64,000 nucleotides of DNA from Schmidtea polychroa (GCA_044892525.1 CM097885.1:252836001-252900000); one strand, 5' to 3'; shown: positions 49,392-53,784, counted from the stretch's first letter. Program-made: numbers and translations. The notes: generated from the letters alone by a model not told the origin.

Positions 49392-50346
49392 CAATAGACA
49401 ATTCTTTTTAAATAAATACTTGGAAGGTATAGGATGCGATGCACTAATGTTACATAATAATATAAATAAAAATTTTTGTATTTTAGAAATACACTTTTAG
49501 AAATAAATACTTATTTGTATATTGTGTATTTTTATCCCGGCCCAACTATAAATTTGCTTTGAAAAATAAGACAATGGTGGCCACTCTACCGATATTTTAG
49601 AAATGTATGACTGCAATATTATAGTACCAATTTTTAAGAAAATGGCAAGTTAATGGTAAGACTGCTCTCTTTTAAAACTCAAAATATATGTAAATATGTA
49701 AATAGAAAATTTAATTAATTTTCACAATGACATGAATTGACCTTTATTTATTTTTATTACCTACTTACTAATCTATAGTATCTACTGCAAATGAGTGAAA
49801 CGGATTTAGCAACACAAGTAGATGGTTTGGAGCCCGCTAACTCCAATACCCCCCTCCAGCGGGGGAAAATTTTTTTTTTGAAAAAAAGTAGGTCAACTCA
49901 AAAATTTATAAATTTTTATAATTTTTTAAGATTTTCAACGGTTTTCAAGATTTTTTCTCAAAAATATTATATTTTTCTCAGAAATTTTATATTTTTCAAT
50001 GGTTTTTCTCAGAAATTTAATAATTTTTTACAATTTTCAAGGTATCTACATAAATATTTTCAGAGTTTTTATGTATGTCAACTCAAAAATATTAGAAAAT
50101 TTTTGAAAAATTAAGTAGGTCAAATATATATCAACAACATTTAGGAATCGAAAATTTTTATAATATTAATTTTCAATGATTAGTCTAACTCAAAGTAGGT
50201 CAAATATATATATCGGTGTAGAAAAAACTGATTTTATGAGTGCATGTGTGTAATGAGCAATAAATAATGGATAATTCAACAACTTTTGAGAATTGAAAAT
50301 TTTTTTAAAATAATGGATAACTCATTTTATATAACGCGCGTGGTGA

Positions 50347-50347
50347 A

Positions 50348-50422
<75 letters not shown>
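50347..50422. repeat. (ATT)n inside the left TIR
   Basis: Follows AACGCGCGTGGTGA; mirror of 53024-53083. Confidence 0.95.
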
Positions 50423-50423
<1 letters not shown>

Positions 50424-53018
50424 TTATAATATTTAACAATACCATACAATTTAAGACAAACATGATTATTTAGATACCAAATAGCAAATATTTAGGCCAT
50501 TTAATGAAAAATACTTGGTTATTTTAAATATTGAAATTTCTGAAGTAAAATATTTCTTGAAAAATTTACCAATGTAGTTAGAAATCCCTGTTTTTGGTTG
50601 TACCAGTTAATTAAAATATTCTTGGATTCATAACAATTTTTATATAGTTGATAGTAATACCAAATATTTCAATCATTTAACTAGAAACATATTTAGTATA
50701 ATATTTAAAATTATTAATGTATGATTAATTGGGGGTAGTTTTGAATAAAATTCTTAGGACTATTCTTTGTGACTATTTTAGGAACTAATTAACAATTTAT
50801 ATTGAGGAAAACAATTAACAAATTCATAGAGATTTTATATACCTCTCTGCGAAATATCATTTGGAGATATTAATTAGTAAATTCTTTAGCAAGAAACATG
50901 TTTATTTCACATTCAGCAAATTTATATTCAATTTATGCATGTTTGATAGAAAAACAGGATTATTTTAGAAATCAATTCATAGGTATATTAGAAGCAAGAT
51001 CATTTAAGCCTTAAATTTTAAGGTATCATTCAGTAAATGAATTCCTAGATAATATAGTATTTTTGAGTAATTTTTCGTTAATTTTTTAAATAACAGTATT
51101 TTGATGTATCAATAAAGACAATTTGGGTAGCATATTGCAAGTTCTTATATATACTCCGAGTTTATCCGACAAGATATTTTGTCCCCCTAAGGGTATTGCT
51201 TGCAAGGGTACTGCTCACATTCAACATGTCACAAGGGTATATTTATTAGTAAATTAAGGTACATGATATCAGTTAGAAATTCCTAGGTAATCTAGTGAGA
51301 AATAGATGCTCATATATATCTTTATCAGAAATTCGTGAATAATTAGAATATTTTAAATGTAACTTTTACCGAATTCTTATTTTGATCGACTAATTTATTG
51401 GTTAACTTTGTCATTTAAAATAATATTTAGCAAAAGTAATTTAGCAAAATATCATTGAAAGATTTATCCACCCGATAACAATATTCCTTCAAATGACCAT
51501 ATTTTACCCTTAACTGATATTTAACCGATTTAATTTCTAATTAAAATCATAAATTTCCTTCAATAAAGTTTAATTTTCTTTAGCTGCTGTCGATGTCCAA
51601 CTCTTTTAAGTCAATATTTCTCAAGTTTTGTCACCGATATCCCCACAATGAATATCCGTCTATAACATGTTAAATAAAGATAAATAATTTAAAGCAATAA
51701 CCTTTGATATCATTCCCAATTAATTCTAAAGATTTCAAATATTTCATTGTCAAAACCAAGTAAATAAACATCCAATTGATCATTAACCCTAAACGACTTA
51801 ATAAAACCGTGGATAATTAATAGAAAATTAATAAAAACTGGTTCTTAAGTAAAACATAAATCTAAATTACTGTGCAATTACATTCATTACAACCTAATAA
51901 ACTTAAAACGATATAATTTAACAGGAACTATTATTGACTCATAGCTAAATACTGACTATTTCCCTTGAAACATTGGTATTTTACCAATTAGAAAATTGTC
52001 GATTTAAATAGAGATATTCAAAACATTTCCACTTTAACCGATCTCTCACCAAATATTTCTACCTTTTTAAACATCTAACCGACTATATTCCTTAAAAATC
52101 ATATATTCCCATCTTAACCAAACCCTCACTAAATCCAACCGGCTATATCCCTTAATTTCACACACTTGAGGCCTTTAATATATCAATTCTCTTAAAATCC
52201 ATAGAAATTTCTTCAAAATATGAATTTTATTTAATTGTTACAGATACCAAACATTTTTCCATTGAAATAATTTAGTAGCTAAATTCATATAGTAAGAGCC
52301 CACTAAAAAATCAAAATTAATTAAAATCAATATTTTCTACAGATATTTGACCACATTTACCATCAAATATCTAACTAGGGATGATAATTTCTCATTGATT
52401 GATCATAATTCTTCATCGATTCAGCCAATTATAGCAATTATAACTTGATATATTTTTCAAACTAAATCAAAAATTTCAATATATTTTACAATAATTTTCA
52501 AGTAGATTTCAAATAAAATTCATGATAAAATTAGCTGGTTTCAACTTTAGATTTTTAATATTTAAAAGTTCATCAATGTGTAAATGGAAATATTCTTAGA
52601 AAATATATGAAAAAATTATTTAGTCAAATTATCATTACAGAGTCATCATAAAAATTAAATAATTTATCCTATCACTTGATTATTGTAAAAAAATATAGCA
52701 AATTATCAAGAAATTAATTAAATTTGTCTTAGAATTAACAATAAAACCTTAAATTTTTAAATATTCTTTCAATTAACATGAAATTCACAAAAGATTATAG
52801 TAATTCACTTGAATATTTACTCTAAAAAATTACCAATGAACTTAGTGCCAAATAATAACCAAAGATTTGCCTTTAATAAAATCATTAAAACACACCAGTA
52901 CCCTTGCGACCAGTACCTTACGACCAGTACCTTAAATTTGCGACATGTTGAAAGTGAGCAGTACATTTATTAGCAATACCTATAGGGGGTCAAAATATCT
53001 TGTCGGATAAACTCCAAG

Positions 53019-53023
<5 letters not shown>

Positions 53024-53082
<59 letters not shown>

Positions 53083-53083
53083 C
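53024..53083. repeat. (AAT)n inside the right TIR
   Basis: Precedes TCACCACGCGCGTT; mirror of 50347-50422. Confidence 0.95.
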
Positions 53084-53784
53084 ACCACGCGCGTTATTTA
53101 AAATGAGTTATCCATTATTGTTAAAAAATTTTCAATTCTTAAAAGTTGTTGAATTATCCCTTACTTATTGCCCATTACACACATGCACTCATAAAATCAG
53201 TTTTTTCTACACCGATATATATATATTTAACCTACTTTGAGTTAGACTAATCATTGAAAATATATTATAAAAATTTTCGATTCCTAAAAGTTGTTGAAAG
53301 ATCCTTTATTTATTGCCCAAAACACACATGCCCGCATAAAGTCAGTTTTTCTAACCCAGATATATATATATTTGACTTACTTAATTTTTCAAAAATTTTA
53401 TAATATTTTTCAGTTGACCTACATATTTCTAAAAAAATTTCTAAGTATTTTGAGTTGACCTACATAAAAATTCTGAAAATATTTATGTAGATACCTTGAA
53501 AATTGTAAAAAATTATTAAATTTCTGAGAAAAACCATTGAAAAATATAAAATTTCTGAGAAAAATATAAAATTTTCGAGAAAAACTCTTGAAAACCGTTG
53601 AAAATCTTAAAAAATTATAAAAAATTATAAAAAATTATAAATTTTTGAGTTGACCTACTTTTTTTCAAAAAAATTTTTTTCCCCCGGGGGAGGGAGTATG
53701 GCAGTTAGCGGGTTCCAAACCATCTATTAACACACAGTTTAGGTTTTGTGTTTCCTAAAATGTGAAAATGTAAATTTATTAGTA

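What the first reader, a model, noticed from the sequence alone, without database searches (positions are those of the whole stretch)
49811..53734. Candidate non-autonomous Polinton/Maverick: 3.9 kb, long modular TIRs, 6-bp TSD, no genes
Seen: the exact 6-bp direct repeat AACACA on both sides; a terminus AGTAGATGG (the right end has one mismatch); inverted arms of over 600 bp built from subrepeats such as GTAGGTCAACTCAAAA; and no long ORF. Established: Polintons have 6-bp TSDs, TIRs of hundreds of bp and AG-starting, short-repeat termini used for protein-primed replication. Inference: this is a gene-less derivative that kept only the ends and was mobilised in trans. A PolB relic 17 kb away shows the superfamily was present in this genome.
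Basis: partly seen in the sequence, partly recalled or inferred. Interest (0 to 1): 0.75.

Follow-up and report, generated by a model that had tools for sequence, protein, structure and literature searches.

The report
Gene-less transposon with Polinton-like ends
A real 3.9-kb mobile-DNA insertion in an animal genome whose ends look like those of Polintons (giant virus-like transposons) but which carries no recognisable gene, most likely a stripped-down, now decayed derivative of a kind already catalogued.

Summary
The structure is real. The element is 49817-53728 (3,912 bp), flanked by an exact 6-bp duplication AACACA (chance about 0.65%). Its inverted arms are about 610 and 705 bp, 94.9% identical (499/526), and built of sub-repeats. 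The left end AGTAGA is one base off the Maverick end motif (AGT)2; the right end has a second mismatch. No gene was detected, but these searches were weak: Pfam also missed the real PolB relic. It is either a nested TA-site element or the cut-off inner end of a longer arm. The PolB relic 17 kb away is confirmed but shares no detectable DNA with the element, so it does not link the two. Best reading (about 0.6): a non-autonomous or internally deleted Polinton derivative, inserted by a Polinton-type integrase and now fossil. Mobilisation in trans is untested, because only one copy is in hand. Non-autonomous Polinton families appear to be catalogued already (Polinton-1N1_DR). Verdict: new member of a known kind, interest 0.3.

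The parts
49811..49816 (.). Left copy of the 6-bp target site duplication AACACA
49817..50347 (+). Left terminal inverted repeat, non-microsatellite part; starts AGTAGATGG; GTAGGTCAA at 49888, 50115, 50195; 51- and 20-bp sub-repeats at 49916-50040
50348..50427 (.). (TAT)n microsatellite, 27 units, at the inner edge of the left arm
50428..51141 (.). 714-bp unique AT-rich core with no counterpart beside the right arm; no detected gene
51142..51234 (+). Inner inverted repeat, left copy (86% to 52938-53030), preceded by a TA run; AAGG(G)TA sub-repeats continue to about 51265
51266..52893 (.). Unique interior, C-rich on + (GC skew down to -0.54); one weak 60/80-bp duplication at 52025-52155; no detected gene
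52894..53030 (-). 14-bp tandem sub-repeats (52894-52934) and inner inverted repeat, right copy (52938-53030), directly abutting the ATA run
53024..53082 (.). (ATA)n microsatellite, about 20 units, at the inner edge of the right arm
53083..53728 (-). Right terminal inverted repeat (646 bp); two 114-bp copies 145 bp apart, extra 41- and 10-bp units; terminus reads AATAGATGG inward
53729..53734 (.). Right copy of the target site duplication AACACA
31802..32750 (+). [quoted passage not shown]

Best explanation
A gene-less derivative of a Polinton/Maverick that kept the two cis-acting ends. SHOWN: it is one insertion, with long inverted arms and an exact 6-bp target duplication, which is the footprint of a staggered integrase cut repaired by the host. 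It has since decayed: the arms are about 5% apart, repeat units differ in number, and base 2 of the right end is changed. INFERRED from Polinton biology: a retroviral-like integrase acted on the AG...CT ends and made the 6-bp duplication. The repeated AG in AGTAG would let a protein-primed PolB start and jump back, as proposed for Maverick end motifs. The arms would pair into a panhandle, and their sub-repeats are likely protein-binding sites. NOT DETERMINED: whether the short form itself moved with a helper's enzymes (slightly favoured, since no gene remnant was found inside) or a full-length element lost its genes after landing. The inner 93-bp pair is either a nested TA-site element of about 1.9 kb or the inner end of a longer arm, cut off by a 714-bp indel at the microsatellite.
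For: Exact 6-bp TSD at the only register of 16 that gives one, chance 0.65%. Left end is one mismatch from (AGT)2; a random 6-mer starts AG and lies within one mismatch of AGTAGT or AGAGAG with p about 0.6% at an assumed 25% GC. Vertebrate Mavericks have 6-bp TSDs, (AGT)2//(ACT)2 or (AG)3//(CT)3 ends and TIRs of 46-1,447 bp (PMC8097293); the end repeats are tied to jump-back priming. The other 6-bp-TSD DNA transposons found in the papers read, IS3EU/GingerRoot, end in TA..TA or TG..CA (PMC10045372). A broken PolB gene lies in the same window: 4 relatives at E 1e-12 to 1e-22, 3 of 4 with PF03175; tblastn back to the window E 3e-46 to 4e-52 for the three longer ones. A family named Polinton-1N1_DR exists (PMC9341505).
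Against: No Polinton gene or DNA match inside the element. The four PolB relatives give best E 0.93 against it; Pfam, NCBIfam and PHROGs give 0 of 6 frames each; 0 hits among 1.84 billion proteins for the 1 of 6 frames searched. The end is AGTAGA, not AGTAGT, and the right end starts AA. The terminal 49 columns are less alike than the rest of the arms (7/49 vs 20/477 mismatches, Fisher p 0.008). One copy only, so the TSD length rests on one case. The relic shows no element ends nearby and no DNA similarity to the arm. Long internally repetitive TIRs of unequal length also occur in Galileo/Foldback elements, and TIR length is called unreliable for classification (PMC3573991). Published end motifs read here are from vertebrates; the host is an unidentified AT-rich animal.
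Confidence: 0.6

Rival explanations
1. A foldback-type non-autonomous element of a cut-and-paste superfamily (unidentified transposase making 6-bp TSDs), in which the sub-repeats are transposase-binding sites and the AGTAG end resembles Polintons by chance.
For: Modular arms with different unit numbers on each side, and extended TIRs in gene-less copies, are described for Galileo (PMC3573991). The window is full of cut-and-paste elements. No Polinton sequence was found inside.
Against: The 7-, 8-, 9- and 10-bp registers all fail (at least 2 mismatches). The termini are not TA..TA or TG..CA. A chance Maverick-like end is about 0.6%. 120 hAT-like transposase relatives give no tblastn hit at E 0.01.
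Confidence: 0.25
2. Within the Polinton reading: a full-length Polinton inserted here and later lost its genes by deletion in place, so the short form never moved.
For: Single copy in 64 kb. 96% of vertebrate Maverick loci are degraded (PMC8097293), and Polinton remnants of several sizes are reported at one nematode locus (10.1101/2024.01.15.575659). The arms carry large indels.
Against: No gene remnant was found in 2.6 kb of interior, though sensitivity is low.
Confidence: 0.25
3. Assembly collapse: both ends of a longer Polinton are real but the middle was lost or misjoined in a gapped assembly.
For: The window has 14 N gaps; long TIRs and microsatellites are hard to assemble (general knowledge).
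Against: No N gap within the element. The arms differ by 5% and by indels, so they are distinguishable, and the interior is unique within the window.
Confidence: 0.07
4. The interior is a decayed captured gene (leucine-rich-repeat-like, minus strand), making this a cargo-carrying element rather than a gene-less one.
For: LRR-looking peptides on the minus strand; LxxLxL count 14 against a null mean of 6.6, p 0.007 uncorrected; minus strand is G-rich.
Against: That was the best of 24 motif tests; the full LRR core motif was not enriched (5 vs 3.2, p 0.24). No 3-base periodicity. 0 hits in Pfam, in PDB sequences (3 minus frames, one partial) and among 1.84 billion proteins (1 frame).
Confidence: 0.1

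Closest known systems
Polinton/Maverick elements (autonomous; e.g. vertebrate Mavericks of PMC8097293)
   Same: 6-bp TSD; TIR length within the reported 46-1,447 bp; end starting AGTAG, one base from (AGT)2
   Different: 3.9 kb against 12.7-24.6 kb; no pPolB, integrase, ATPase, protease or capsid gene detected; right end altered; inner second inverted pair
Non-autonomous Polinton families (Polinton-1N1_DR, named in PMC9341505; reading N as non-autonomous follows the naming stated in PMC10045372 and recall of Repbase usage)
   Same: Polinton-type ends without the gene set (inferred from the name; the sequence was not seen)
   Different: No sequence comparison was possible; family status of this element (copy number, helper) is unknown
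Galileo / Foldback-type elements (P superfamily, PMC3573991)
   Same: Long internally repetitive TIRs (up to about 1.25 kb), unequal repeat numbers in the two arms, gene-less two-TIR copies
   Different: Galileo has 7-bp TSDs; the 7-bp registers fail here; no P-type transposase found
IS3EU/GingerRoot (PMC10045372)
   Same: 6-bp TSD
   Different: TA..TA (sometimes TG..CA) termini; here AG..TT (from AG..CT) at the register that gives the TSD
Tc1/mariner-pogo non-autonomous elements, for the inner 1.9-kb segment only (TcMar-N4_AC terminus CYGTATATACTCGAGTATAA in PMC3014272)
   Same: TA context at both ends; the inner repeat begins TATATACTCCGAGTTTAT, which loosely resembles it
   Different: First three bases differ; the two inner ends differ from each other near the tip; no transposase trace. 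A lead only

Membership tests
Polinton/Maverick | 6-bp target site duplication | tested here: met
   AACACA exact, only register of 16; chance 0.65%; single copy
Polinton/Maverick | TIRs of tens to about 1,500 bp | tested here: met
   611 and 705 bp, 499/526 identical; range from PMC8097293
Polinton/Maverick | Short-repeat end motif (AGT)2//(ACT)2 or (AG)3//(CT)3 | tested here: inconclusive
   Left AGTAGA 5 of 6; right AATAGA 4 of 6; invertebrate end motifs were not found in the papers read
Polinton/Maverick | Encodes protein-primed PolB | tested here: not met
   tblastn with 4 PolB relatives: best E 0.93 in the element, 1e-46 or better at the relic for three of them; no long ORF
Polinton/Maverick | Encodes retroviral-like integrase, ATPase, protease, capsids | tested here: not met
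   No intact ORF: longest interior frame 63 codons. Decayed remnants not excluded: Pfam 0 of 6 frames but also 0 of 3 PolB-relic frames
Polinton/Maverick | Length about 13-25 kb | tested here: not met
   3,912 bp; range in 10.1101/2023.08.22.554363
Non-autonomous Polinton family | Ends shared with an autonomous Polinton of the same genome | not testable with these tools
   Host genome and Repbase/Dfam not available; no shared ends near the PolB relic
Non-autonomous Polinton family | Multiple dispersed copies with different 6-bp TSDs, or an empty site | not testable with these tools
   One copy in the window; the 2 prokaryotic-genome hits are 18-23-bp chance matches
IS3EU/GingerRoot | TA..TA (or TG..CA) termini with 6-bp TSD | tested here: not met
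   Termini AG..TT at the TSD register; the TA..TA register 49819/53726 has no duplication of 2-12 bp
Galileo/Foldback (P superfamily) | Long internally repetitive TIRs | tested here: met
   PMC3573991
Galileo/Foldback (P superfamily) | 7-bp TSD | tested here: not met
   At least 3 mismatches at 7 bp in all 16 registers
hAT / MULE | 8-bp (hAT, recalled) or about 9-10-bp (MULE, recalled) TSD | tested here: not met
   Best 8-bp register has 2 mismatches; 9 and 10 bp at least 4. hAT subgroups with shorter TSDs (recalled) were not tested
Tc1/mariner or CACTA (outer element) | TA TSD, or CAC termini with 2-3-bp TSD (recalled) | tested here: not met
   No TA-flanked register at the arm tips; termini are not CAC
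Tc1/mariner-pogo (inner 1.9-kb segment) | TIRs flanked by a TA duplication | tested here: inconclusive
   TA runs at both tips, but AT-rich context makes this weak; no second copy, no transposase trace

The most novel reading that the evidence does not exclude
The element is one copy of a multi-copy, gene-less Polinton satellite: a minimal linear replicon whose modular arms are enough for a helper's protein-primed polymerase and integrase, and perhaps its capsid, to copy, insert and carry it. It ferries a nested TA-site transposon as cargo. That would define the cis-sequences a Polinton needs in an invertebrate host, and would show a defective-interfering-like parasite of an endogenous virus.
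Probability: 0.2. Interest if true: 0.6.

Novelty: new member of a known kind. Interest (0 to 1): 0.3.

Why it matters
How Polintons replicate and integrate is inferred from sequence; a passage in PMC5499653 (2016) says their life cycle had yet to be characterised experimentally. A short gene-less family with intact ends would mark out the minimal cis-elements and show that the enzymes work in trans. As a single decayed copy it is mainly useful for annotation: it marks a probable Polinton family in this genome, about 3.7 kb beyond the most 5' discoidin-domain-receptor exon found, so in a 5' intron or upstream of that gene.

Tried and rejected
1) LRR pseudogene in the interior: 1 of 24 motif tests reached p<0.01 uncorrected, 2 more were at 0.033; no hits in Pfam, NCBIfam, PHROGs, PDB sequences or 1.84 billion representatives. 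A lag-133 autocorrelation peak (z 4.6) was not borne out as a repeat by diagonal scoring. 2) Arm derived from PolB: the outward frame of each arm spells KTVENLKK, identical to 8 residues beside PolB motif B. Exact 8-mers arose in 0 of 150 shuffles in each of 8 runs, but the best local alignment scores (40-47) sat at the null means (41-45), and DNA similarity to the relic was null. Treated as coincidence from 10-bp TTGAAAA-type repeats. 3) Old duplication between the 714-bp core and about 52190-52820: above all 132 control windows under soft scoring (132 vs top 107.5), not under strict scoring (34 vs up to 35) and on no consistent diagonal. Unresolved, not claimed. 4) A frameshift-tolerant coding score was uninformative: 3 of 4 negative-control regions scored high and only 1 of 3 positive controls was clear. 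5) Prokaryotic genome scan with the terminal 20-mer: 2 loci, 18-23-bp chance matches. 6) Rfam: 0 matches. Folding of the four repeat tips: only the left end was mildly stable (z -1.95). 7) Host identification failed: 0 of 4 ORFs were in the protein collection, the DDR exon search gave 0 of 49 candidates, and the transposase relatives span snails and insects. A planarian host is a recalled impression only. 8) Kapitonov and Jurka 2006 was not held. Viral and metagenome contig collections, the ESM atlas, Repbase/Dfam and the rest of the host genome stayed unchecked for this element.

Full report
1. Observation. The sequence shows AACACA at 49811-49816 and 53729-53734, enclosing 3,912 bp. I tried 16 symmetric boundary registers with duplication lengths of 2-12. 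Only 49817/53728 gives an exact 6-mer; one neighbouring register gives 4 bp, five give 2 bp, and the best 8-bp register has two mismatches. In 17,480 usable random position pairs from the window, 113 (0.65%) had an exact repeat of 6 bp or more in any of five registers. The left end is AGTAGATGG and the right end, read inward, is AATAGATGG. A 24-base terminal pattern matches only these two places with up to 3 mismatches, and 0 of 100 shuffles gave two matches.

2. Anatomy of the arms. The left arm is 49817-50347 plus a (TAT)27 run to 50427; the right arm is an (ATA)20 run from 53024 plus 53083-53728. Outside the runs the arms match at 499 of 526 aligned columns (94.9%). The right arm has extra blocks of 10, 41 and 67 bp, each tied to a repeat unit. 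GTAGGTCAA occurs three times in each arm, and units of 10, 20, 41, 51 and 145 bp are present. The terminal 49 columns are more diverged than the rest (7/49 vs 20/477, p 0.008), and base 2 of the right end is changed, so this copy looks decayed.

3. The interior. On the right it abuts the ATA run; on the left 714 bp of unique sequence separate it from the TAT run. It is more diverged than the outer arms (13/93 vs 27/526, p 0.004). Reading A: a TA-site element of about 1.9 kb is nested at the microsatellite. Both tips lie in TA runs, and the tip loosely resembles the TcMar-N4_AC terminus in the table of PMC3014272. Reading B: it is the inner end of a longer arm, cut off from arm-to-arm correction by a 714-bp indel, which would explain the extra divergence. 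One copy cannot decide between them.

4. Genes. The longest stop-free frame between the arms is 63 codons (35 frames of 35 codons or more). With stops read as X, 0 of 6 frames matched Pfam, NCBIfam or PHROGs; 0 of 3 minus frames, one of them partial, matched PDB sequences; and the one frame searched against 1.84 billion representatives gave 0 hits. These negatives are weak, because the same Pfam call also missed all three frames of the true PolB relic, and my coding-score test failed its controls. An LRR-like look on the minus strand did not hold up. Rfam gave nothing. 'No intact gene' is shown; 'never had one' is not.

5. Surroundings. The host is an AT-rich animal in a gapped assembly (14 N gaps). 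Exons of a discoidin-domain receptor lie on the minus strand at 45919-46164, 24702-25004 and 22233-22541; its 5' exons were not found. The species was not identified. The PolB relic is real. A 92-residue frame found 4 relatives among 163 candidates, three with PF03175 and one of these also with PF02945. They align back to 31802-32750 and 35120-35402, split by a pogo/Tigger element at 32771-35082. The relic shows that a pPolB-encoding element once lived in this genome. It does not tie that element to this one: nhmmer finds no arm or interior sequence elsewhere in the window, DNA similarity between arm and relic is at null level, and the PolB relatives give best E 0.93 against the element. The exact KTVENLKK octapeptide in the arms' outward frame is rare as an exact match but gives no alignment score above null, and I treat it as coincidence.

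6. Mechanism. Shown: a single insertion with a 6-bp duplication and long inverted ends, later decayed. Inferred from the literature: the TSD length and the AG-starting end point to a Polinton-type integrase (6 bp for Polinton, PMC10045372; end motifs and TIR range, PMC8097293 section 7). The repeated end would allow jump-back priming by a protein-primed polymerase (PMC4196379). A Maverick-like 6-mer would arise by chance in about 0.6% of ends, although AGTAGA is not a listed motif and the lists read are from vertebrates. I put Polinton origin at about 0.6. Within that, movement of the short form in trans is slightly more likely (about 0.35) than deletion in place (about 0.25). A foldback-type cut-and-paste element takes about 0.25: Galileo shows that long modular arms of unequal length are not diagnostic (PMC3573991), though its 7-bp TSD fails here. 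Assembly collapse takes about 0.07. A decayed cargo gene (0.1) is compatible with any of these origins.

7. Membership and novelty. It is not a Polinton in the strict sense, since pPolB and integrase genes define the group (PMC5499653) and no intact gene is present. It works like a non-autonomous Polinton derivative, pending the test of shared ends. Such families appear to be catalogued: a phrase search for non-autonomous Polinton/Maverick and the names Polinton-1N1 and -2N1 found 2 papers, one naming Polinton-1N1_DR (PMC9341505). That its N means non-autonomous follows the naming in PMC10045372 and my recall. Polintons lacking polB or carrying TE cargo are also reported (10.1101/2025.02.07.637071). 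I found no detailed description of a gene-less invertebrate Polinton family in searches, but the library lacks the founding papers and Repbase Reports. Verdict: new member of a known kind, interest 0.3; the satellite reading has probability 0.2 and interest 0.6 if true.

8. What I saw of each paper. Passages only: PMC2836005, PMC3014272, PMC6431247, 10.1101/2024.01.15.575659 (32), PMC10045372, 10.1101/2023.08.22.554363 (52), PMC8532177, PMC4196379, PMC3573991, PMC5499653, PMC9341505, PMC9341512. Passages plus one section: PMC8097293 (section 7 in 33) and 10.1101/2025.02.07.637071 (section 12 in 76). Nothing: Kapitonov and Jurka 2006 (25), known only through citing papers and recall. No supplements were read; those of PMC8097293 and of the nematode Polinton preprints may hold end sequences that bear on the terminus comparison. 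TSD rules for hAT, MULE and CACTA, and the label hATm, are recalled.

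Noticed in passing
window 31802-32750 and 35120-35402 (+): Broken protein-primed PolB gene, split by a pogo/Tigger insertion; one of its four relatives also carries an endonuclease VII domain (PF02945)
   Followed up: yes
window 32771-35082: pogo/Tigger-like element with TA flanks, 23-bp TIRs and a 585-codon DDE_1/HTH_Tnp_Tc5 frame on the minus strand
   Followed up: partly
window 2525-7110: Gypsy-type LTR retrotransposon with identical 239-bp LTRs, so very young; 5-bp duplication ATGAC and TA...TA instead of the usual TG...CA LTR ends
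   Followed up: partly
window 57025-59280 (+): Intact 752-codon transposase-like frame without a Pfam match (hAT-like, hATm by recall); 85% identical over 37% of its length to a Biomphalaria pfeifferi protein, which may point to horizontal transfer among freshwater animals
   Followed up: partly
window 49179-49391: Small hAT-type MITE with an exact 8-bp duplication CAATAGAC, 420 bp left of the element
   Followed up: partly
window 53785-53980: Small pogo-type MITE with TA flanks, 50 bp right of the element
   Followed up: partly
window 45919-46164, 24702-25004, 22233-22541, 17584-17979 (-): Exons of a discoidin domain receptor gene (F5/8 and DS-like Pfam matches; the last has a transmembrane-like stretch) spread over about 29 kb of TE-filled introns
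   Followed up: partly
window 46888-47148 (+): Actin gene fragment, probably a pseudogene piece (Pfam E 2e-11)
   Followed up: no
window 55778-56548 and 61103-62543 (+): Two broken hAT-type transposase relics; the first matches Dimer_Tnp_hAT, the second is assigned by eye only
   Followed up: no
window 16284-16584 and 59760-60085: Two inverted copies of an unclassified repeat of about 300 bp, 94-95% alike
   Followed up: no
window 50428-51141 vs about 52190-52820: Weak direct similarity seen only under soft alignment scoring; unresolved
   Followed up: yes
window outward frames of both arms, near 49922-49948 and 53588-53614: Encode KTVENLKK, identical to 8 residues beside PolB motif B; not significant by alignment score
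   Followed up: yes
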